A DNA stretch of 64,000 bases, taken from positions 64,001-128,000 of the IMG/VR virus record IMGVR_UViG_3300028914_000061. The stretch is one strand, 5' to 3'. Source of the stretch: a virus (Duplodnaviria; Caudoviricetes). Each line of letters opens with the position of its first letter. The stretch's first letter is position 1. The position numbers and the translations under genes are program-made. This document shows positions 1-64,000 of this stretch, piece by piece. The notes below the pieces were generated by a model. It did not search any database. It was not told the origin of the DNA and saw only the letters and a program-made list of their open reading frames with translations.

Positions 1-55
1 GTTAGTTCGCTGCCCTTTCACGGCAGTAATACGGGTTCGAGTCCCGTTGGCACGA
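1..55 (+). tRNA. tRNA-Glu(TTC), 5'-truncated by window edge
   Basis: Anticodon arm CTGCC-CTTTCAC-GGCAG, T arm ACGGG-TTCGAGT-CCCGT. Confidence 0.85.
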
Positions 56-129
56 CTCTCGCCGAGTTAGTTTCTAATCCGGAGCGCTTAACGTACACAC
101 GTTAGTAAGTAGGAAACAAGGCGAGTTTT

Positions 130-204
130 CGGCTAGTGGTGTAATTGGTTAGCACGTCACCCTGATAAGGTGAAAGTTTGGTGGTTCGAGTCCACCCTAG
201 CCGA
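130..204 (+). tRNA. tRNA-Ile(GAT)
   Basis: Acceptor CGGCTAG/CTAGCCG, arm TCACC-CTGATAA-GGTGA, GGTTCGAGTCC. Confidence 0.93.
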
Positions 205-219
205 CAAAATATGCAAAAA

Positions 220-251
220 TTTGTGAAATAATTTATTTTTTTGTATATTTA
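220..251 (+). promoter_or_regulatory. Class II promoter TTTG-N20-TATATTTA (Bacteroidetes sigmaA-like)
   Basis: Same spacing at 6643, 12461, 39616, 40960, 42937; resembles Bacteroidetes -33 TTTG / -7 TAnnTTTG. Confidence 0.65.
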
Positions 252-258
252 TAAAACA

Positions 259-398
259 AGAAAGTAGTATTCCTGTCAAGGGCGAAACAATTGATGGGTT
301 AGAGCCATACCGTTAGAAACACGGTCATAATGTTAGGGTACAAGTCGGGTAAAACTGACACCAGTCGGAATGACAAGTTAAATTATGGTTCACTTTCT
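259..398 (+). ncRNA. Putative structured ncRNA
   Basis: Closing helix AGAAAGT/ACTTTCT, internal hairpins, no ORF, directly after promoter. Confidence 0.45.
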
Positions 399-402
399 AA
401 AT

Positions 403-477
403 GGGGCGTTAGCTCAGTCTGGCTAGAGCGGTAGCTTTGCAAGCTTCAGGTCGTGGGTTCGAATCCCACACGCTCCA
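403..477 (+). tRNA. tRNA-Ala(TGC)
   Basis: GGGGCGT/ACGCTCC with G3:U70, loop TTTGCAA, T arm. Confidence 0.93.
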
Positions 478-600
478 CAAAACATATTCAGGTATAGAAG
501 ACGCAAATTCTAAGAGACTGCTCTGTGTTTTGGACGATATATGTGTACCAAACCAATGTTCAAGTTGCGTATTGAACTGAGGGCATGTATAATCGAAAAA

Positions 601-669
601 AAGTGTCTATGGTGTAAGTGGTGAGCACACCCAATGGAGGGAGGTACGGTTCGAGTCCGTGGATTACTT
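601..669 (+). ncRNA. tRNA-like RNA with reduced anticodon arm
   Basis: D-like GTGTAAGTGGTGAGCAC, T arm ACGG-TTCGAGT-CCGT, only CCC-AATGGA-GGG between them. Confidence 0.5.
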
Positions 670-843
670 CAATTTTTTTCTTATTATTTAAAAGGATGAA
701 GTTGGTAGCGCCACAACGTAATGTAACAAGTCCCTGAAATGGTCATTTCAAACTGTGTTCCTTATCGTAGTTAAGGGAAAGTCTTTTACGGTTTCTATAA
801 TGCGAAAGCCAAAATGTATCAAAGGAAGCAAACCGTTTTATTT

Positions 844-970
844 GGAGGTATAGTTTAGTGGTAGAATGACGTAAAATGAAAATAGCATTTTGGTCATTTA
901 AAAATGTTAACAGCATATGAGTTCAATGCCTTTCCCGCCGTTGATGTAGGTTCGATTCCTGCTGCCTCCG
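844..970 (+). tRNA. tRNA (TTC, Glu-like) interrupted by 56-nt insert (872-927)
   Basis: Removing 872-927 gives ACGGC-CTTTCCC-GCCGT and a 71-nt cloverleaf with acceptor GGAGGTA/TGCCTCC; C37 is atypical. Confidence 0.75.
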
Positions 971-1124
971 CTATGAGATACCAATAGGTTTACTTAATCA
1001 TATGTCAGAAGTACAATGACGTTAGAGTATGGGATTGCCGGAAGCTAACGGTGTGATACATAACTTCGCACAATTGGTAACAATTCATGTTAGTTGCAAA
1101 TGACATGATGCTCATTTTTTTTAT

Positions 1125-1256
1125 TGGCCAGTAGCTCAGTTGGCAGAGCAACGGAATGAAAAGAAAACGCATTTTGGCCTAAAGATGTTAACAGCAATGA
1201 AAAATTTTCGACTGTTAATCCGTGGGCCGCAGGTTCGAGTCCTGCCTGACCAGCCA
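1125..1256 (+). tRNA. tRNA-Asn(GTT) interrupted by 56-nt insert (1154-1209)
   Basis: Removing the insert gives a canonical 76-nt tRNA, ACGGA-CTGTTAA-TCCGT, encoded CCA. Confidence 0.88.
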
Positions 1257-1359
1257 ATATGTCTTGTGTTGGTGCGTAACCATCGGGCACTAAATGTTGA
1301 AACAAACAGGATTAAGTTCCTCGAAAGCCATTAATCAGTTCAACTCTGATGGGACATAT
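1257..1359 (+). ncRNA. tRNA-like RNA (acceptor plus T arm, non-canonical core)
   Basis: ATATGTCTT/GGGACATAT closing helix, ATCAG-TTCAACT-CTGAT T arm. Confidence 0.5.
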
Positions 1360-1366
1360 TTTTTAT

Positions 1367-1442
1367 GCATGTATGAAGCAGATTGGATGTGCTACCAGCG
1401 TGATAAGGCTGGGCTATGTTGGTTCGAATCCAACTGCATGCG
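1367..1442 (+). tRNA. Atypical tRNA (Ile GAT-like) with 8-nt anticodon loop
   Basis: GCATGTA/TGCATGC, CCAGC-GTGATAAG-GCTGG, GTTGG-TTCGAAT-CCAAC. Confidence 0.7.
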
Positions 1443-1483
1443 CAAATTACCTGAACACATAGGGTGATTTATCTGTACAGATT

Positions 1484-1637
1484 GGGTGTGTAGACTGAAT
1501 GGGAAAATTGGTATCAAAAGTACATTCGGATATGACTGAAATGCAGATAGGTCATATTGACGGGATGCAACTTGAGAAGATTTGAAGATGCGCCCGGTAA
1601 GCTCCGGGAGATACGGGTTCGAATCCCGTCACACTTA
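1484..1637 (+). ncRNA. tRNA-like RNA with greatly expanded D region and 6-nt loop
   Basis: GGGTGTG/CACACTT, CCCGG-TAAGCT-CCGGG, ACGGG-TTCGAAT-CCCGT. Confidence 0.55.
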
Positions 1638-1642
1638 CAATA

Positions 1643-1709
1643 GGAAAACATACAGCAACTTTAATTCAGTTACAATCTTTTAAATTGTGGGACTAAAATT
1701 TCGTTTTCC
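1643..1709 (+). ncRNA. Stand-alone ACAGCA element enclosing a Lys(TTT)-like anticodon stem-loop
   Basis: GGAAAAC/GTTTTCC helix, ATACAGCAA, ACAAT-CTTTTAA-ATTGT. Confidence 0.65.
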
Positions 1710-1796
1710 GTTTAATATATGGTTGGCAAAGATGAGTTAGCTAGCAAACATTACCCCAAAAGTTATTCATACTTAGGTTATAACGCCAATCATTAT

Positions 1797-1878
1797 GGGG
1801 AAGTGGTGGAACTGGTAGACACGTATGCCCAAGGAGCATATGCCGAAAGGCGTGTGGGTTCGACTCCCACCTTCCCTA
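1797..1878 (+). tRNA. tRNA-Leu(AAG)
   Basis: Type II cloverleaf with long variable arm, TATGC-CCAAGGA-GCATA; C33 and A34 unusual. Confidence 0.88.
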
Positions 1879-1886
1879 CTTAATAT

Positions 1887-2018
1887 GCCCTGTAGTCAAA
1901 GTTGTAGAACAACTATTACGTATGTCGTTGTTTCTGTAATTTCTGGTGATTTATTTGACCGTACTTTGTTAATACATGTTAATACGAAGTATGAAGGTTC
2001 GATTCCTTTACTGAGGCG
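1887..2018 (+). ncRNA. tRNA-like RNA with expanded D and anticodon arms
   Basis: T arm GAAGG-TTCGATT-CCTTT, GTCAA/TTGAC enclosing a long hairpin, GTACTTTGT/ACGAAGTAT arm. Confidence 0.5.
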
Positions 2019-2028
2019 CAAGGAGAAA

Positions 2029-2099
2029 GCCTTGTTAGTTTAGTGGTAGAATGATACCCTCGTAAAGTATAGACGATGGTTCGATTCCATCACTTGGCT
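2029..2099 (+). tRNA. tRNA-Thr(CGT)
   Basis: Loop CTCGTAA, GATGG-TTCGATT-CCATC; acceptor stem has two U:U mismatches. Confidence 0.8.
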
Positions 2100-2131
2100 C
2101 AATATTTATTAAAGAACAAAAAAGATTATTT

Positions 2132-2392
2132 ATGAAAAAGTTATTTTTAACAATTACTATTGTTTTTGCATTGCTTACAAGTTGCATTGCACAAAATGGA
2201 GGAGGATTATTCCAAAGGGGTGAAAATCCTGAAAGTGAAAAAACCCAAGTTATTTATAACAGAGAAGGGGGATTTCCTGGTCTTCCGCCACACGGAGAAG
2301 AAGGCGACCAACCTGCACCTGTAGGCGCAGGAACTGTTTTACTTATTGGCTTTGGTGCTGCTTATGCAATGTACAAGAAAAACAAAAAGTAA
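2132..2392 (+). CDS. Small exported protein with PID/PEP-CTERM-like C-terminal sorting signal
   Basis: Signal peptide, Pro/Gly-rich body, PAPVGAG + TM + KKNKK tail. Confidence 0.75.
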   Translation: MKKLFLTITIVFALLTSCIAQNGGGLFQRGENPESEKTQVIYNREGGFPGLPPHGEEGDQPAPVGAGTVLLIGFGAAYAMYKKNKK

Positions 2393-2394
2393 AG

Positions 2395-2670
2395 AAAACT
2401 CAACGCTGATGAGTATAAATAAGACAGCCGTACAGCCATCGTGAACGGTAGCAGTACTGGACTAAACTGTTAAAATAAAGGCCCTAAGGGAGAGGTAACG
2501 TTACTCCTTAAAACTAGCGAATTTCAAGTAGATTCATGGGTTATCGAAAGGCTTTAGAAATGTTAAGTAAAAAGACCTTATGCCAGCGATTGACACTCTA
2601 CACGGGGAGTGTAGGCCACGAAAAATGTGGTGGTTGAAAAAGTACCAGGGTTCGACTCCTATATCAATCA
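2395..2670 (+). ncRNA. Putative ncRNA with 3' tRNA-like domain (2588-2670)
   Basis: No ORF; GATTGA/TCAATC closing, 6-bp D-like stem, CCAC-GAAAAAT-GTGG, variable arm, GGTTCGACTCC. Confidence 0.45.
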
Positions 2671-2690
2671 AGGAAATCCATTTTTCAGAT

Positions 2691-2768
2691 GGTGTCTATA
2701 GTGTTAGTGGTCGAGCACGCAAGTTTGTGGCACTTGTAGCCTCAGTTCGAATCTGAGTAGACACCCCA
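2691..2768 (+). tRNA. tRNA-His(GTG)
   Basis: G-1, CAAGT-TTGTGGC-ACTTG, C73, encoded CCA. Confidence 0.93.
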
Positions 2769-3073
2769 ATAGCAAGTACGGACCACATAGTAGTGTTCAG
2801 GGTAAGCCGTAAAGGTATCAGCTGTAGGGTTACGGTGTAGTCAGGGACCCATGTCCCCCAGCCTGATGAAGGAGTGTTGGTAATTTGCGAATCTCGTAAA
2901 TTAAAGGTGAACTGCAACCGATTCCGTGAGGGGCCATAAGATGACAAGCAACAGGAGCGTAAAAGTAGAGAAAAATGTGCAATCTGCATCAAGGTCTAGG
3001 TTAGCCCTCTCCCCATTGCACACTTACCACATAGTGGTTGTTCTCGCCTTGTCTCGTGAATTTACCTTGCTAT
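2769..3073 (+). ncRNA. About 305-nt putative structured ncRNA between tRNA-His and tRNA-Ser
   Basis: ATAGCAAG/CTTGCTAT end-to-end helix, raised GC, no credible ORF. Confidence 0.55.
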
Positions 3074-3078
3074 TTTAT

Positions 3079-3164
3079 GGAGATGTGGCCGAGTGGTTTA
3101 AGGCGGCTCTCTGCTAAGGAGTTGGGCCCATAAAGCCCCGCAGGTTCGAATCCTGCCATCTCCG
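3079..3164 (+). tRNA. tRNA-Ser(GCT)
   Basis: GGAGATG/CATCTCC, loop CTGCTAA, long variable arm, G73. Confidence 0.93.
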
Positions 3165-3294
3165 CAGAACGTGGCCAAAGCACGTTTTTAACACAAAAAT
3201 TAAAGTGTTGGAGTATAATAAAGTGAAAATGTGGTCTGCAAGCCCATCGGTAAGCCAACGTGCTTTGAAAGTTCTTTGCCTTTGCAGGGGCAAT

Positions 3295-3367
3295 TTGTTT
3301 ATGGTGTAACAGGGAGCATGCCTGTCGTGAAGACAGGAGGAGTCGGGTTCGAGACCCACTGAGCAGC
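3295..3367 (+). tRNA. Atypical tRNA, loop CGTGAAG (nominal TGA), short variable loop
   Basis: CCTGT/ACAGG stem, D and T arms present, G:U-rich acceptor, G33. Confidence 0.55.
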
Positions 3368-3368
3368 T

Positions 3369-3519
3369 AAATAATTGAGAGGGAGTTGTCTGTTGAGAAT
3401 CAAGCTTACTCAGTGGAAACGGATAGCGGGAAAATGGTTACTACCGAAACTTCATTACGGGGTGTGTGACAAAGGAGTATTAGGTGTATGAAGGAAACTA
3501 ATACGTGTATCAATTATTT
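3369..3519 (+). ncRNA. Putative structured ncRNA
   Basis: 10-bp closing helix AAATAATTGA/TCAATTATTT, internal hairpins. Confidence 0.4.
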
Positions 3520-3548
3520 TTTATTTCAGATTTCACGATGTCAAAAAT

Positions 3549-3579
3549 AAAGGTCGCTGAGTTTTCAACGACCTTTTTT
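3549..3579. terminator. Bidirectional intrinsic terminator
   Basis: AAAGGTCG...CGACCTTTTTT between convergent units. Confidence 0.8.
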
Positions 3580-3580
3580 G

Positions 3581-5641
3581 TTATTCTATTGTGTTAAGTA
3601 TCCGAGCAAGTTCACATGAATACATTCCCGTTGCTTCAGGAAACATATATTCGCCAAATTCTTCACAAAGTTCTTCCTCGTTTATTTCTCCATCATTATA
3701 ATCGTGTATAAATTCTTCTATTTCTCCATTATCTTCATCGAAATAGTCAATCAGATAATCAACTAATCCATGGGCTATCTCATGGCCTATAGAAATCCTC
3801 GCCTGAGCCTTTATATTGAAATCATCGGTATCTATACCATTTTTAACCATTAATGCGTGTATGAGCCCCAAATTGACCCCTATTGGGATAATTTTCTCAC
3901 CTATTAAGTTTCTTGAACGCTCGTAAACGGCAAGCCAATTTTTATCACCAAAATTATAATTGTAATCAAGTTCAACCGAAATACCCAATCTTCTCAAAAA
4001 TTCATTCTCCAAATCATTAACACACTCATAGGCATGTTCCATGAATTTACGTTTCCAAATGTCAAATGAATTAACTGATTCGTTCAATTCTTCTTTACCT
4101 TCAAGTCTATCTGCCAAAGTTTGTATGCTGACACAATTTTTGTCTTGAAGTGTAAAGTGGCTTCTTTCTATATAGAAATAAATCGGCACTCTTTGGGCAA
4201 ATTCACTCTTTGATATTTTCAATAATGCCTTTTTGTCTGCATCAAATTGTTTGAAACCCATCATCAAAGAATCATAATCAGGATAGTATATATCAACACG
4301 GTTCAAATAAGCGCTGACGTGAGTAAGGTTATCTCTATATGGTAGTTGTAATCCTTCTTCTGCTTGGTTTTGGTATTCATGTCTTTGAAGTGAACCAAGA
4401 TTAAGTTCTTTTGGTAGCCCCAACTTAACAGGTGCTAAACCCATTCTTCTTTGCTTTTCGTAATAATATTCTTTGTCTTGGTATCTTGACTTGCTTGATT
4501 CGTTACCAGGAATTTGTCTGTTGAATGCGGCATCGTATCTATCTCTCTTTGGAGAATAGTATTCCATTGGCTTAACATTCAATACATCGTGATTTGAATT
4601 GAGTTTATCTGTGTTAAATTCAAGCCTTACAAATGGATGCATTCTATAATATGATGCATTGGCAAATCCCTCAAAGTCACTTCTATGTCTTGTCAATGAT
4701 ATGTGTGAATTACCATCCCAATATTTAGTGTTATAAAATGCCGAATACAGTTCATCAGATTCAGCAATAAGACTAAATCTGTATAAGGTTGTGAAATGAT
4801 ACAAAGATTTCATGTTTGTGTGCTCGTTCAATGTACACTCTTCCAAATCATTTATGTTTCCTAAAAATTTTTCAAACCTCTTTCCATGGATGTCTTTTAT
4901 GCTTCCATAAGTGTTATTTAGGAATTCAAGCATATCTTTTAGTTTTACACAATGCTTGTCCTGCAAAGCAAAATTCCTTGCATTGGTGTAAACAAATATA
5001 GGCACGTAATTTGCAAATACGCTATCACCTATTTCTTGATATTCGGATAATAAGTTATTCCATCCATCGTAATCTTTAAGTACTTCGTTAAATTCTTTAA
5101 ACAAAATATCTATTCTGTCAATATACTTGTGTATATTTTTTAACTTTGGCCTGTATTTATCATTCTTAATTTGCAACCCTTCTTCAGCCTGATTGTGAAA
5201 CTCAATCCTGTCGCCATTTTCTTCCCTATAAAACGGGTTCTGATAATGGGCCTTTGACGTTGTGTAATGAGAAAACATATAAGCGCCATGTCTTTTTGGA
5301 GAATAAAACTCCATTGGCTTTATGTTCAAAACATCATGCTTTGAATTTAATTTTTCTATGTTAAATTGTATCCTTACATTGTTGTTTCTTTCGTTGGCAA
5401 AAGCAAACCCCTCAAAATTGCTTTTATGCCTTGTCAATGATATGTGGCTATTGTTATCCCAATAATCCTTCAGGTAGTTTGCACCCAACAATTCATCAGT
5501 GTTAACAATTTCACGTAAACTGTATATTGACGTGAAATGATACAAAGATTTCATGTTAGTGTGCTCATCAATTATATTCTTAACACACTCGCTTACTATC
5601 TTTTCAATGTCTTCTATTGTGTATTCAATCAATTTTTCCAT
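3581..5641 (-). CDS. Polyvalent protein: two tandem ADP-ribosyltransferase-like domains plus C-terminal HExxH metallopeptidase
   Basis: Duplicated EHTNMKSLYHFT...ISLTRH...NQAEE, GHEIAHG, LNE linkers. Confidence 0.7.
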   Translation of the reverse strand: MEKLIEYTIEDIEKIVSECVKNIIDEHTNMKSLYHFTSIYSLREIVNTDELLGANYLKDYWDNNSHISLTRHKSNFEGFAFANERNNNVRIQFNIEKLNSKHDVLNIKPMEFYSPKRHGAYMFSHYTTSKAHYQNPFYREENGDRIEFHNQAEEGLQIKNDKYRPKLKNIHKYIDRIDILFKEFNEVLKDYDGWNNLLSEYQEIGDSVFANYVPIFVYTNARNFALQDKHCVKLKDMLEFLNNTYGSIKDIHGKRFEKFLGNINDLEECTLNEHTNMKSLYHFTTLYRFSLIAESDELYSAFYNTKYWDGNSHISLTRHRSDFEGFANASYYRMHPFVRLEFNTDKLNSNHDVLNVKPMEYYSPKRDRYDAAFNRQIPGNESSKSRYQDKEYYYEKQRRMGLAPVKLGLPKELNLGSLQRHEYQNQAEEGLQLPYRDNLTHVSAYLNRVDIYYPDYDSLMMGFKQFDADKKALLKISKSEFAQRVPIYFYIERSHFTLQDKNCVSIQTLADRLEGKEELNESVNSFDIWKRKFMEHAYECVNDLENEFLRRLGISVELDYNYNFGDKNWLAVYERSRNLIGEKIIPIGVNLGLIHALMVKNGIDTDDFNIKAQARISIGHEIAHGLVDYLIDYFDEDNGEIEEFIHDYNDGEINEEELCEEFGEYMFPEATGMYSCELARILNTIE

Positions 5642-41001: not shown

Positions 41002-41064
41002 AGAAAACATACAGCAACTATTCAATACACAAAGAGAGGGTTTTTGTTTGTCATACTGTTTTCT
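41002..41064 (+). ncRNA. Stand-alone ACAGCA element
   Basis: AGAAAACA-T-ACAGCAA...TGTTTTCT, just after class II promoter. Confidence 0.6.
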
Positions 41065-41180
41065 GATAACATGAAAATAATCAAATTTATACATAGACTG
41101 CTGAGAAGCAAGCCAATTTAATTTAAAGTTAAGTTCAAAACAGTTAGGTAGGTCTGTTTGAAGTAAAACAAAACCTCCGG

Positions 41181-41360: not shown

Positions 41361-41546
41361 AGAAAGCGTACAGCAAAGCTCAAAATCAAATTAATGTAAT
41401 TAGTTAATTCAAAGATGATGAGATGCGCACTCTCTCCAAGTCTAGGCGCACAGCCCTTAGATACGGCTGCTAAGACCAGAGACTTGGGCGTGAAAACCTT
41501 GGAAAGTACACAGCGCTAAATGATACATCGGTTTTTCTCGCTTTCT
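41361..41546 (+). ncRNA. ACAGCA element enclosing a pseudoknotted domain
   Basis: AGAAAGCG-T-ACAGCAA...CGCTTTCT; CCAAGTCT/AGACTTGG; CAGCC/GGCTG with CTTAG/CTAAG. Confidence 0.65.
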
Positions 41547-41859
41547 GAAACTTATGGAGTTTTATTAGTTTCGCTTCTGTTTGAAAAACTAATTGGTGGA
41601 GTATAGGACAACCGTACACCCAGGCTTCCATGAGCCTCTTGCTTGGCAAGTTTCGATTTTAAATCATGGAACAATGTGTGTTTGTTTGCACGGAATTCTC
41701 GAATTTCGTGCTTTTTTTTTATCTAATTGAAATTTCTGGCACGGTTTTTGTTGAATATTGTGGTGTTCATTCTATATTAAATTATGAACAAATTAAAATT
41801 TTAATGCCAAATCGAATAGTCTGGCACGATATTTGATAGGGTAAGAAAAAAGTAAAATT

Positions 41860-57055: not shown

Positions 57056-57340
57056 ATCAATTAATCTAAAATTATATCCATATAATTACAAAAGTCTTCA
57101 ACCCACCAATGTTTGTCAGCCTCAGGCATATCCAAGTTCATGTAAAGCCATTCAGCCGCTTTTTTGATTACGTTATTTTTTTCTTCTTGTGTCATAGCAT
57201 TTTATTCTACTATCCAATGAGGGTCTTCGATATTTCCAAGGTCATTGTCATCAATGTATCCTGAATAATCGGAAAGATGCTTACTTATCTCAGCAAGCAA
57301 ATCTCTCATGGGTTTGTTAAAATCTTTTTCTTCATCCATG

Positions 57341-59254: not shown

Positions 59255-59494
59255 TCATAATTCTTCAAGCTTTTTCTGTTGGTCTTTTTTAAATTCTGAA
59301 ATAAGGTCCATAATCTTTCCATACAATTCTGATGGGATTAAGATTTCCTTTGTTCTTCCATTGAAAGAACGTTGTTTAAAATAGAAATTGCTTTGATATT
59401 CATCATCAGGTCTTGTTAACTCAAATTCAATATCTTCACAATTCTCAATATTGAAATAAAGTTTTAATGCTTGTTCTACTTTATCAGGGCTCAT
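59255..59494 (-). CDS. Hypothetical protein (paralog of next gene)
   Basis: Similar length and termini. Confidence 0.75.
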   Translation of the reverse strand: MSPDKVEQALKLYFNIENCEDIEFELTRPDDEYQSNFYFKQRSFNGRTKEILIPSELYGKIMDLISEFKKDQQKKLEEL

Positions 59495-59724
59495 AGACTT
59501 GCAAATCTTTCTTTAAGTTTTGAAACATGGTTTACTATTAGTTCTACAATGTCATCCTCAATTTCTTTTGGTAGTGCAGTTCCAGAACTTGGGTTATTAT
59601 CTTTCACCATAACAAAATGAGCATCAGGAAATGCTTTTTCATTTGTTATAGTTTTTACTATTTGCTCGTATGTATTAATTTGAAAATCGAGCTTCATAGC
59701 TTCGTTAAGTTGCTCTTTATTCAT
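59491..59724 (-). CDS. Hypothetical protein
   Basis: MNKEQLNEA...KERFASL. Confidence 0.75.
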   Translation of the reverse strand: MNKEQLNEAMKLDFQINTYEQIVKTITNEKAFPDAHFVMVKDNNPSSGTALPKEIEDDIVELIVNHVSKLKERFASL

Positions 59725-63129: not shown

Positions 63130-63297
63130 AGTTTATCTGCGTTAATGGTTACTGCAATTCTTGCCCATTCGTCTTTAATTTCTTGTGTCAATAGTGAGTT
63201 AGTTTCTGTGTTCATAATTGGGACAATACAATCTTTGAAGAATCCATCCCAATCCATTTCAAACTCTCCGAAAGTGTTATGAATGTTAGCCATAATA

Positions 63298-64000
63298 TTA
63301 CTGTTTAATTACGTAAATAAAATCATTGAACGTATGCCAATATTCTTCACCATTTAGGCAATACCTCTTATTGTAGTCAAGGTAAATTTTACCATCATCA
63401 TCAACAACCATTTCTACACCGATAACATAATCAACAAGGTCTTTAACCCCCTTGTAAATCCTAATTTCAAATCCATGTCTGTTGAGAATCTTTGTAGCAA
63501 GGCCAGCCTGTTCTTGGACAATCTCTTCGTCAAATTTATATTCGTTGAAAATCTTGTTCATTTCTCCTGTCTCATCACAGAAGTCAAGCCTGATTCTTGT
63601 ATTGTCGAATCCACAATCCTTTGAGAAGTCAACAAATTTCAGGACAAACAAAACATAGTCCAAATAATCCTCAAAAGGTTCATAAATAACTGCAATTGAA
63701 GTAGTTGCAATACCTCTTTCATGTAACTCTTCATTCAACTTTTTAAGGTCTTCATTTGAAGGAATATATTTGGTCCTGAATATTTCCGATGTTCTTTTCA
63801 GATACTCATAATGGTGGACTGAGATATTGACAATATCCACAATATCCTTCATGTAAATCATGCACTCATTAAGATGATAGCCGTTGGTAGTAAGAACAAT
63901 CTTGTCAACTTTCTCTTTGTATCGTTCTTTGAAGTATGCCAACATATTCATAAGTTCAACGAACTCTTTTACATTGAAAGTTGGCTCATTTCCCGTAATG
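63298..64000 (-). CDS. Radical SAM enzyme, N-terminus beyond window
   Basis: Frame open to the edge: ITGNEPT, LTTNG, VNISVH. Confidence 0.8.
   Translation of the reverse strand, partial: ITGNEPTFNVKEFVELMNMLAYFKERYKEKVDKIVLTTNGYHLNECMIYMKDIVDIVNISVHHYEYLKRTSEIFRTKYIPSNEDLKKLNEELHERGIATTSIAVIYEPFEDYLDYVLFVLKFVDFSKDCGFDNTRIRLDFCDETGEMNKIFNEYKFDEEIVQEQAGLATKILNRHGFEIRIYKGVKDLVDYVIGVEMVVDDDGKIYLDYNKRYCLNGEEYWHTFNDFIYVIKQ

What the first reader, a model, noticed from the sequence alone, without database searches (positions are those of the whole stretch)
844..1256. Two tRNAs carry related 56-nt introns at a non-canonical site (29/30): possible new tRNA intron class
Seen: both tRNAs are split after ACG in the 5' anticodon-stem strand by inserts of exactly 56 nt (872-927 and 1154-1209). 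The inserts share AATGAAAA..GCATTTTGG..TAAA(A/G)ATGTTAACAGCA..ATGA, which is a 7-bp hairpin followed by ACAGCA. Removing them restores perfect 5-bp stems with 7-nt loops: ACGGC-CTTTCCC-GCCGT, and ACGGA-CTGTTAA-TCCGT in a 76-nt tRNA-Asn with CCA. The junction in the first tRNA cannot slide, which fixes it at 29/30. Known: bacterial tRNA introns are group I introns of about 200 nt or more, and bacteria lack the archaeal/eukaryotic splicing endonuclease. I see no group I core or bulge-helix-bulge here. Inference: a compact self-splicing or phage-enzyme-spliced intron, possibly shielding the anticodon from host anticodon nucleases until it is spliced.
Basis: partly seen in the sequence, partly recalled or inferred. 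Interest (0 to 1): 0.92.

Follow-up and report, generated by a model that had tools for sequence, protein, structure and literature searches.

The report
ACAGCA handle arms inside phage tRNAs
Two tRNA-shaped genes of a giant phage do carry related 56-base inserts in the anticodon stem, but the inserts are copies of a widespread "short helix plus ACAGCA" RNA handle that elsewhere tags back-to-front tRNAs and bare anticodon arms and travels with a Ro60-like ring protein. They are therefore more likely protein-docking arms than a new self-splicing intron.

Summary
Window 844-970 (tRNA-Glu UUC shape) and 1125-1256 (tRNA-Asn GUU shape, CCA encoded) each carry a 56-nt insert after ACG in the 5' strand of the anticodon stem. 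Deleting it restores a 5-bp stem and 7-nt loop.

The inserts are not isolated. They belong to a family defined by a 7-10 bp helix followed by ACAGCA(A). This 148-kb jumbo-phage record holds at least 6 hairpin (intron-like) copies and 10 strand-permuted stand-alone copies. The permuted copies enclose permuted tRNAs, a tRNA body with no anticodon arm, or bare anticodon stem-loops. Dozens more lie in other jumbo phages, with helix covariation.

Insertion sites vary: 28/29, 29/30, 31/32, the D loop and about 25/26. There is no bulge-helix-bulge, no Rfam ribozyme or intron match, and no RtcB or EndA gene. Every insert-bearing tRNA has an insert-less isoacceptor.

In other phages the handle co-occurs with a DUF2828/vWA protein that I modelled as Ro60-like, and it sits in that gene's leader in some of them. 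That gene is not in this 41%-complete record.

My best reading is a Y-RNA-like docking arm (about 0.5). Handle-directed splicing remains open (about 0.27). Other agents in this scan found the same family on other DNA.

The parts
844..871 (+). 5' part of the tRNA-Glu(UUC)-shaped gene: acceptor 5' strand, D arm, and positions 27-29 (ACG) of the anticodon stem
   Evidence: Rfam tRNA alignment, 43.7 bits; sequence
872..927 (+). 56-nt insert, a handle arm. A-rich 5' tail 872-882; helix strand 883-891; loop 892-900; helix strand 901-909; ACAGCA core 910-915; 12-nt 3' tail 916-927
   Evidence: Sequence; fold of the insert alone gives the 9-bp hairpin; family comparison
928..970 (+). 3' part of the tRNA-Glu-shaped gene: positions 30-31 (GC), loop CTTTCCC (anticodon TTC, C at position 37), GCCGT, T arm, acceptor 3' strand, discriminator G
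1125..1153 (+). 5' part of the tRNA-Asn(GUU)-shaped gene, ending in ACG; the junction may lie up to 2 nt further 3'
   Evidence: Rfam, 49.3 bits; ARAGORN intron mode
1154..1209 (+). 56-nt insert, a handle arm. 5' tail 1154-1168; helix strand 1169-1175; loop 1176-1181; helix strand 1182-1188; TA; ACAGCAA core 1191-1197; 3' tail to 1209
1210..1256 (+). 3' part of the tRNA-Asn-shaped gene: GA, loop CTGTTAA, TCCGT, T arm, acceptor 3' strand, encoded CCA
   Evidence: The anticodon arm is identical to that of the insert-less tRNA-Asn of this genome (genome 62525) and of relative L004 2633-2707
1643..1710 (+). Stand-alone, strand-permuted handle RNA: GGAAAAC, AT, ACAGCAA, 44-nt cargo with an anticodon stem-loop of Lys(UUU) type, GTTTTCC, G
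   Evidence: orthologs in L005 at 11268 and related copies in other phages
41002..41065 (+). Stand-alone handle RNA: AGAAAACA, T, ACAGCAA, 39-nt cargo, TGTTTTCT, G
   Evidence: ortholog at L006 (reverse strand) 7555
41361..41547 (+). Stand-alone handle RNA with an unidentified 162-nt cargo: AGAAAGCG, T, ACAGCAA ... CGCTTTCT, G
   Evidence: ortholog at L006 (reverse strand) 7940 with the same helix

Best explanation
The two 56-nt inserts are hairpin-form copies of a modular RNA handle: a 7-10 bp helix followed directly by single-stranded ACAGCA(A). Here the handle is grafted as a side arm onto the 5' strand of the anticodon stem of otherwise complete tRNA-shaped RNAs.

Most likely the arm stays in the mature RNA and serves as the docking site for a protein. 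In related jumbo phages the candidate is a Ro60-like ring protein of DUF2828 plus vWA type. The RNA would then be a Y-RNA-like particle that displays a tRNA or anticodon-arm mimic, not a decoding tRNA.

Shown here: the module, its helix covariation, its three topologies, its spread, its co-occurrence with the Ro60-like gene in other phages, and its position in that gene's leader in some of them.

Inferred: that the protein binds the handle; that the arm is not excised; and that the displayed tRNA parts act as baits or scaffolds for tRNA-directed enzymes, for example host anticodon nucleases or repair enzymes.
For: 1. One module, three topologies. The hairpin form sits inside tRNAs (genome 57187, 59407, 59531, 59667; window 910, 1191). 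The permuted form has the order strand A, ACAGCAA, cargo, strand B, G, with perfect 7-10 bp helices of differing sequence.

2. Helix pairs covary across 49 distinct elements. At -9 the pair is A-U in 32 and G-C in 17; at -7 A-U in 37, G-C in 10 and U-A in 2; at -4 there are four pair types. The core is invariant.

3. Cargos that cannot become tRNAs: bare anticodon stem-loops (Lys UUU several times, Asn, Glu, Pro, Cys, Ile) and an acceptor+T+D body with no anticodon arm.

4. The junction varies between 28/29, 29/30, 31/32, the D loop and about 25/26. The 5' tail runs 6-16 nt, and the linkers at the junction differ from copy to copy. I see no geometry that a precise endonuclease could read (hand analysis).

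5. Each insert-bearing tRNA of this genome has an insert-less isoacceptor: Glu TTC, Asn GTT x2, Pro TGG, Gly TCC, Met CAT x3.

6. DUF2828+DUF7788 genes are present in both complete handle-bearing genomes and in a third record. A handle ends 4-16 nt before their start codon in 3 of 3.

7. The AlphaFold model (pLDDT 81) has Ro60/Rsr/TROVE structures as its 11 best PDB matches, E 5e-6 to 9e-4.

8. The handle consensus gives 60 hits in 15 jumbo-phage records against 1 for the reversed control. It is present in 13 of 13 near-complete genomes searched (11 of these 15 records were picked via the Ro60-like protein; the two others at 90% or more also carry the gene).

9. Precedents exist. Ro60-bound bacterial and phage Y RNAs mimic tRNA in permuted order (PMC4201824). 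Dictyostelium Class I RNAs share a terminal stem, an adjacent 11-nt motif and a 3' CUGU (PMC7919456).
Against: No Ro60-like, TROVE or DUF2828 gene was found in this 148-kb record (41% complete), nor in its 302-kb relative (82% complete), by Pfam model or by a custom HMM. For this lineage the partner is therefore unverified.

Only 6 of 37 Ro60-like loci carry the handle in the leader, and the genomes tested are partly related.

In 9 of about 13 hairpin-form cases, removing the insert restores exactly a 5-bp stem and 7-nt loop in register. Selection for splicing would also predict this. The distance from ACAGCA to the 3' junction is narrow (12-16 nt), which a measuring enzyme would explain.

The helices of the two window inserts deviate from the stand-alone consensus: A instead of G at -8 and T instead of C at -3.

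Nearest-neighbour folding puts the cloverleaf-plus-arm fold 12-13 kcal/mol above the MFE.

No RNA or binding data exist.
Confidence: 0.5

Rival explanations
1. These are true, protein-dependent tRNA introns, and the permuted genes are true permuted tRNA genes. The helix plus ACAGCA module would be the recognition element of an unidentified endonuclease or RNP that cuts at the base of the arm, 12-16 nt 3' of ACAGCA and opposite it. A ligase then joins the exons, for example host RtcB. Permuted precursors would be circularised and then opened by RNase P and 3' processing, as for the permuted tRNA genes of Cyanidioschyzon (from my own knowledge).
For: Exact restoration of a canonical anticodon arm in both window genes and in at least 7 other hairpin-form genes. 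A narrow distance from ACAGCA to the 3' junction. The 5' exon ends in ACG in 7 of about 10 cases. Complete permuted tRNA-Tyr and tRNA-Cys have 7-bp acceptor stems and spacers that RNase P could process. The tRNA bodies keep compensatory changes between relatives. Intron-rich tRNA arrays are normal in these phages: Lak-type and group I introns are present. Likely hosts can encode RtcB: the Bacteroides thetaiotaomicron control genome has it.
Against: No EndA, RtcB or T4 Rnl1 in any of 8 related records, two of them complete; an Rnl2-type ligase in one only. No BHB. Junction position and linker geometry vary, with no conserved splice-site nucleotides. Many family members have cargo that cannot yield a tRNA. 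All insert-bearing tRNAs are redundant with insert-less isoacceptors. Several related genes give no clean splice solution, for example genome 57123. Permuted Cys orthologs have anticodon loops that drift between CTGCAAA, AAACAAA and AAGCAAA.
Confidence: 0.27
2. A compact self-splicing or self-cleaving ribozyme intron.
For: An invariant ACAGCA next to a helix could in principle be a catalytic core. In the Glu gene the insert loop (893-899) is complementary to the 5' exon end (864-870), which places the 5' junction at a 1-nt bulge of a 14-bp alternative hairpin (z = -3.1).
Against: No match to any of the 4227 Rfam families at E <= 1. Only about 7 conserved nucleotides. The exon-loop complementarity is absent from the Asn, Gly, Met and Pro copies. 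The same core occurs in stand-alone RNAs with nothing to splice, in mRNA leaders of the Ro60-like gene, and, by the paper's description together with my recollection of the motif, in Dictyostelium Class I RNAs, which are stable small RNAs. The inserts alone fold no better than shuffles (z = -1.1 and +0.2).
Confidence: 0.05
3. Inactivated pseudo-tRNAs: a DNA-level mobile or recombining element, or a fusion between tandem handle-RNA genes, has disrupted spare tRNA copies, and the products have no function.
For: The two window genes have no orthologs in the two closest relatives. The two inserts share identical 9- and 12-nt blocks in different tRNA bodies. The inserts in Gly, Met and Pro contain a same-sense copy of the exon junction, which suggests an origin by recombination. 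All of them are redundant. An HNH endonuclease gene lies in the array.
Against: Full-length Rfam scores of 44-49 bits with intact stems. Insert-bearing Pro and Gly genes are conserved in three genomes with compensatory stem changes. An insert-bearing Met(CAU)-type gene with the same 28/29 junction occurs in a distant phage (L020). The family is conserved across many phage lineages.
Confidence: 0.1

Closest known systems
Ro60/Rsr-bound Y RNAs with tRNA-like domains (YrlA, Yrn1; Chen et al. 2014, PMC4201824; Rfam RF02553)
   Same: A small RNA built from a protein-binding stem plus a tRNA mimic. Found in bacteria and phages. Some copies have the permuted order T arm, closed acceptor hairpin, D arm. 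The M. smegmatis YrlA is even cut by RNase P and receives CCA. The candidate partner here folds like Ro60.
   Different: The handle is a helix plus ACAGCAA, not the Y-RNA bulged helix with the GNCGAAG motif. Rfam YrlA scores only 23 bits (gathering 69) on one permuted copy. The partner is DUF2828/DUF7788, not a Pfam TROVE protein. Here the handle can also sit as a side arm in a normal-order tRNA that keeps a full anticodon loop, or carry only an anticodon stem-loop. No Ro60-like gene was found in this record.
Class I RNAs of dictyostelid social amoebae (Kjellin et al. 2021, PMC7919456)
   Same: A short stem joining the 5' and 3' ends (structure conserved, sequence not). A conserved, unstructured 11-nt motif directly 3' of the 5' stem strand, with C, C, A, A at its positions 6, 9, 10 and 11, which fits xxxxxCAGCAA. 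A 5' G and a 3' CUGU. A variable interior. Length of about 60 nt. The stand-alone phage elements show RG...ACAGCAA...C(U/C)GU.
   Different: The paper prints the motif only in a figure, so the identity with ACAGCAA rests on my memory plus the listed positions. Its position 3 (T) is offset by one in the phage consensus. The paper describes the class as unique to Dictyostelia and reports no tRNA-like cargo and no insertion into tRNAs.
Archaeal/eukaryal BHB tRNA introns, split tRNAs and permuted tRNA genes (from my own knowledge)
   Same: Short inserts at non-canonical positions including 29/30. The same element appears in intron-like and permuted gene forms, consistent with interconversion by tandem duplication.
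   Different: There are no two 3-nt bulges separated by 4 bp at either window junction (hand check against both possible registers). No EndA-family gene. The setting is a bacteriophage.
The 'enigmatic' tRNA introns of Lak megaphages (Devoto et al. 2019, PMC6784885)
   Same: Unexplained inserts in the anticodon arm of tRNAs of huge gut phages, with no Rfam hit. The same type occurs in this genome (tRNA-Cys at genome 57498) and in relatives.
   Different: Lak introns lie after the anticodon. They start (T)ACAG/ACAA plus a small hairpin, are 79-114 nt long and contain a T-arm-like hairpin. The stored part of Table S6 has no ACAGCA. This is a different class from the two window inserts.
Bacterial and phage group I introns in tRNA genes
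   Same: They interrupt the anticodon arm of tRNAs. Real ones of 228-501 nt occur in tRNAs of related phages.
   Different: The window inserts are 56 nt and show no group I core and no Rfam match.

Membership tests
BHB (archaeal/eukaryal) tRNA intron | Both splice sites lie in 3-nt bulges on opposite strands, separated by a 4-bp helix | tested here: not met
   Hand check of both possible registers on 864-871 / 872-880 / 919-935. No 4-bp central helix with the required bulges. MFE folds show none.
BHB (archaeal/eukaryal) tRNA intron | A splicing endonuclease of the EndA/Sen family is available | tested here: not met
   PF01974 is absent from the own record and from G001 and G002. The host is unknown, but from my own knowledge bacteria lack EndA.
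Group I intron | Conserved P3-P9 core detectable by covariance models; length of about 200 nt or more | tested here: not met
   cmscan against Rfam 15 at E <= 1 returns only tRNA over these coordinates. The inserts are 56 nt.
Known small self-cleaving ribozymes (hammerhead, twister, twister-sister, pistol, hatchet, HDV-like, hairpin) | Match to the family's covariance model | tested here: not met
   No such hit at E <= 1 in window 1-4500 or in the 9.2-kb array locus.
Helix + ACAGCA(A) handle RNAs (Class I-like) | A 7-10 bp helix whose 5'-side strand is followed within 0-3 nt by single-stranded ACAGCA(A); helix supported by covariation | tested here: met
   Window 883-915 and 1169-1197. Family statistics; 46-49 elements. 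The helices of the two window copies deviate from the stand-alone consensus at -8 and -3.
Helix + ACAGCA(A) handle RNAs (Class I-like) | RNA termini formed by the helix (5' G, 3' CUGU) | tested here: not met
   In the two inserts a loop closes the helix, and the tRNA acceptor stem supplies the ends. The stand-alone copies at 1643, 41002 and 41361 do show RG...CYG(T).
Y RNA / YrlA | Encoded near, or in the same genome as, a Ro60 (TROVE) gene | tested here: inconclusive
   No TROVE or DUF2828 in this 41%-complete record or in G001. A Ro60-like gene is present in G003, G004, G007 and in 11 further jumbo phages that all carry the handle.
Y RNA / YrlA | Match to the Rfam YrlA model, or the conserved Ro-binding helix motif | tested here: not met
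   The best hit is 23.1 bits against a gathering score of 69, and it falls on the tRNA-like part of a permuted copy outside the window.
Y RNA / YrlA | Physical binding to the Ro60-type protein | not testable with these tools
   No binding data. I did not run a complex prediction, because the partner gene is not in this genome.
Lak-type (type B) phage tRNA intron | Insert 3' of the anticodon, starting (T)ACAG/ACAA plus a small hairpin, with an internal T-arm-like hairpin | tested here: not met
   Comparison with Table S6 of PMC6784885. The window inserts lie 5' of the anticodon and have no T-arm-like hairpin.

The most novel reading that the evidence does not exclude
The helix plus ACAGCA module is the recognition signal of a bacterial-virus tRNA splicing system unrelated to BHB/EndA. 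It would excise the arm from normal-order genes and circularise and rejoin permuted tRNA genes, possibly with the Ro60-like ring protein as the platform and a host or phage ligase as the sealer. Jumbo phages would then own a third, independent solution to tRNA splicing, together with permuted tRNA genes.
Probability: 0.25. Interest if true: 0.95.

Novelty: new variant of a known kind. Interest (0 to 1): 0.76.

Why it matters
If the arms stay in the RNA, jumbo phages make a large, uncatalogued set of Y-RNA-like particles. These would display whole tRNAs, permuted tRNAs or single anticodon arms on a handle shared with the unexplained Class I RNAs of social amoebae. That would link the Class I RNAs to a Ro60-type protein. 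It would also suggest a phage strategy aimed at tRNA-directed host enzymes such as anticodon nucleases, repair enzymes and modification enzymes.

If the arms are excised, this is a new tRNA splicing system in the bacterial world, together with permuted tRNA genes.

Either way, gene finders miss or mis-call these genes. Default ARAGORN skipped both window genes, and Rfam has no family for the handle.

Tried and rejected

- The search for related loci with two window proteins (the 686-aa ORF and the sigma factor) found no relatives. An exact pattern built from the two window inserts found nothing in IMG/VR. blastn against GenBank phages gave only generic tRNA matches.

- No orthologs of the two window genes exist in the relatives, so no insert-present versus insert-absent allele pair could be examined.

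- A brute-force search over splice boundaries with ARAGORN was useless: the program accepts many alternative junctions. Junctions were therefore set by hand, requiring a 5-bp stem and a 7-nt loop.

- The first AlphaFold run, with a 3-sequence alignment, was unusable (pLDDT 45). It was redone with 29 sequences.

- phmmer of the Ro60-like protein against PDB sequences gave nothing; only the fold search did.

- I considered and dropped several mechanisms. K-turn or box C/D, an RNase P minihelix and an RNase III ruler have no consistent geometry. Trans-splicing of anticodon-arm cassettes into the arm-less body fails because each element's helix strands pair only with each other. An IS200/IS605-like DNA element does not fit a single hairpin with no transposase.

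- A pairing between the 5' and 3' tails that closes the arm can be drawn in most copies, but not in the Gly, Met and Pro group, and its register varies.

- An attempt to show that DUF2828-bearing contigs from the same metagenomes belong to this lineage gave nothing.

Full report
**Setting.** The window is bases 64001-128000 of a single 148,072-nt IMG/VR virus record, which CheckV rates 41% complete, so the full genome is a jumbo phage of roughly 360 kb. The record holds about 47 tRNA genes in two arrays, a suppressor tRNA(CUA) and a permuted tmRNA. The finding lies in the main array.

**Observation.** Both genes are as described.
- The Rfam tRNA model covers 844-970 (43.7 bits) and 1125-1253 (49.3 bits) from model position 1 to 71. 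It leaves a 67-nt and a 58-nt unaligned block in the anticodon arm. No other Rfam family matches there at E <= 1.
- The inserts are 872-927 and 1154-1209, each 56 nt.
- Removing them gives a 71-nt tRNA-Glu(UUC) shape with loop CTTTCCC, which has an unusual C at position 37. It also gives a 76-nt tRNA-Asn(GUU) shape ending in CCA.
- The first junction is fixed at 29/30. The second can slide by up to 2 nt.
- The two inserts share a 9-nt and a 12-nt identical block. Each has a hairpin (9 and 7 bp) followed by ACAGCA.

**The inserts belong to a family.** ARAGORN in intron mode finds further insert-bearing tRNA-shaped genes in this genome. Four of them (Tyr-like at 57123, Gly at 59341, Met-like at 59471, Pro at 59609) have the same plan as the two window genes:
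- an A-rich 5' tail of 6-16 nt;
- a hairpin;
- 0-3 nt, then ACAGCA;
- a 3' tail of 12-16 nt.

Listing every ACAGCA in the genome showed additional copies between tRNA genes. In each of those, the 7-10 nt before the motif are perfectly complementary to a stretch 40-260 nt downstream, which is followed by G. So the same module exists with its strand order permuted. The helix closes the RNA, and the region between ACAGCAA and the second strand is a "cargo".

The cargos in this genome are:
- a complete, circularly permuted tRNA-Tyr (3' half, spacer, 5' half; also in the relative L004);
- a permuted tRNA-Cys joined in the D loop;
- an acceptor+T+D body with no anticodon arm;
- bare anticodon stem-loops of Glu, Cys and Lys type, the last at window 1643-1710;
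- two unidentified RNAs, at window 41002-41065 and 41361-41547.

**Statistics for the family.**
- The 10.5 kb of arrays hold 13 [AG]CAGCAA motifs, 11 of them with the helix.
- Shuffled arrays give 1.1 motifs and 0.13 with a helix.
- The remaining 259 kb (both strands) give 3 of 59.

**Spread and covariation.**
- A pattern for one common helix variant found 19 stretches in about 15 IMG/VR contigs, mostly of 100-400 kb. About 16 of them also show the flanking R...YG that was not part of the pattern.
- Over 49 distinct elements the core is invariant, while helix pairs covary. At -9 the pair is A-U in 32 and G-C in 17. At -7 it is A-U in 37, G-C in 10 and U-A in 2. At -4 there are four pair types.
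- More hairpin-form copies inside tRNAs occur in other phages: Pro at 29/30 with a 6-nt 5' tail; Met(CAU) at 28/29 with a GCAGCAA core; two Tyr-like genes at 31/32.
- The same arrays also hold Lak-type inserts and true group I introns. These phages therefore carry at least three kinds of tRNA insert, and the Lak "enigmatic introns" are a different kind from the one studied here.

**Is it spliced?** I could not obtain RNA data, so this rests on indirect evidence.

Against splicing:
- There is no BHB (hand check), and no ribozyme or intron model matches.
- No EndA, RtcB or T4 Rnl1 gene occurs in eight related records, two of them complete. An Rnl2-type ligase occurs in only one.
- The junction position varies, and so does the geometry at the base of the arm. 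Unpaired linkers are 0-5 nt on the 5' side and 0-3 nt on the 3' side.
- The splice sites have no conserved nucleotides beyond a frequent ACG before the insert.
- Many family members have cargo that can never become a tRNA.
- Every insert-bearing tRNA here is redundant with an insert-less isoacceptor.
- Some related genes have no clean splice solution.
- Permuted Cys orthologs have drifting anticodon loops.

For splicing:
- About 9 of 13 hairpin-form genes restore exactly a 5-bp stem and a 7-nt loop.
- The distance from ACAGCA to the 3' junction is narrow.
- The permuted tRNAs look processable.
- A likely host phylum has RtcB (control genomes).

**Partner protein.** Notes from other agents in this scan pointed to a DUF2828 protein, and I tested this.
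- PF11443 hits occur in both complete handle-bearing genomes (G003, G004) and in G007.
- The proteins are DUF2828 plus DUF7788 with a DxSGS MIDAS motif.
- A handle element ends 4-16 nt before the start codon in all three of those genomes, and in 6 of 37 homologous IMG/VR loci.
- An AlphaFold model from a 29-sequence alignment (pLDDT 81, pTM 0.80) has Ro60, Rsr and a TROVE-domain crystal structure as its 11 best PDB matches. These are full-length alignments with E from 5e-6 to 9e-4, although the global TM-scores are only 0.30-0.47.
- The handle consensus occurs 60 times in 15 jumbo-phage records, against once for the reversed control. Eleven of those genomes were chosen only because they carry the protein, and all 11 have the handle.

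Limits on this evidence:
- The genomes are partly related.
- No negative set was tested.
- Neither this record nor its 82%-complete relative shows the gene.

**Comparison with known systems.**
- Ro60-bound Y RNAs of bacteria and phages (YrlA) carry tRNA mimics in the order T arm, closed acceptor, D arm. One of them is even cut by RNase P and receives CCA (PMC4201824). This is the closest functional analogue. However, the handle differs from the Y-RNA helix, and Rfam YrlA does not match.
- The handle itself matches the description of Dictyostelium Class I RNAs: a terminal stem, an adjacent unstructured 11-nt motif with C, C, A, A at positions 6, 9, 10 and 11, a 5' G and a 3' CUGU (PMC7919456). 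That paper regards the class as restricted to Dictyostelia.
- I found no paper that mentions DUF2828, and none that describes permuted tRNA genes in phages.

**Unexplained.**
- In the Glu gene the loop of the arm (893-899) is complementary to the 5' exon (864-870). The 5' tail also repeats the helix strand. The predicted MFE is therefore a 14-bp alternative hairpin that destroys both the arm helix and the D stem (z = -3.1). The cloverleaf-plus-arm fold is 12-13 kcal/mol less stable in both genes.
- The Gly, Met and Pro arms contain a same-sense copy of the joined exon sequence.

These features may reflect a switch, an origin by recombination, or chance.

**Verdict.** The interpretation as a new self-splicing intron class is not supported. 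A protein-recognised handle arm, making a Y-RNA-like tRNA mimic, is the best-supported reading at about 0.5. Handle-directed protein splicing stands at about 0.27. RNA data would decide between them.

Noticed in passing
window 1484-1638: A third tRNA-shaped gene. ARAGORN calls it Gln(UUG) with a 64-nt insert and a long extra arm. The insert has a 7-bp hairpin (ATATGAC/GTCATAT) but no ACAGCA. Rfam tRNA gives only 21 bits on its 3' part.
   Followed up: partly
G000 genome 57498-57668 (outside the window); L005 3878-4035; L007, L020, L022: A second class of tRNA insert, identical in plan to the Lak megaphage 'enigmatic introns'. It lies after the anticodon, starts (A)ATACAG plus a small hairpin, and contains a T-arm-like hairpin. 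It occurs in several jumbo-phage lineages.
   Followed up: partly
L009 1004-1319; L015, L016, L020, L024, L007: Inserts of 228-501 nt in tRNA-Leu(UAA), Ser, Lys and others of related jumbo phages look like group I introns. These arrays therefore carry three kinds of tRNA insert.
   Followed up: no
G000 genome 63549-63853 (just 5' of the window): A permuted (two-piece type) tmRNA gene: Rfam RF04321, 63.4 bits. It lies next to a large handle element (63187-63465) that encloses a permuted tRNA-Cys and a conserved RNA of about 130 nt.
   Followed up: partly
G000 genome 53382-53453: A suppressor tRNA with anticodon CTA. Together with the sparse long ORFs at window 17-30 kb under code 11, this raises the question of TAG recoding. 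I did not resolve it.
   Followed up: no
whole genome: Six ordinary phage tRNAs have C or G instead of U at position 33: Arg ACG, Leu CAA, Leu AAG, Val GAC, Ser and one more. This recalls reports that phage tRNAs change their anticodon loops to escape host anticodon nucleases.
   Followed up: no
stand-alone handle RNAs in about 15 phages: Anticodon-arm cargos are often flanked by a second 5-bp helix (TTAGT / ACTRA), with a 1-nt and a 3-nt internal loop. Lys(UUU) is the most frequent anticodon displayed, followed by Asn, Glu and Pro.
   Followed up: partly
G000 genome 60352-60921 (L008 3453-4022): An HNH endonuclease ORF (PF13392, PF01844) sits inside the tRNA array, next to a 211-aa ORF with no Pfam match.
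   Followed up: partly
window 600-670 and 1367-1443: tRNA-like remnants with good T arms (GGTTCGAGTCC, GGTTCGAATCC) that neither ARAGORN nor Rfam accepts as tRNAs. They may be further rearranged or arm-less tRNA mimics.
   Followed up: no
L031 83-1420 (G003, directly upstream of the Ro60-like gene): A 445-aa ORF with a treble-clef zinc finger (DUF4379, DUF723) and a weak, sub-threshold hit to the Sen54 N-terminal domain (E = 0.0012). I did not pursue it.
   Followed up: no
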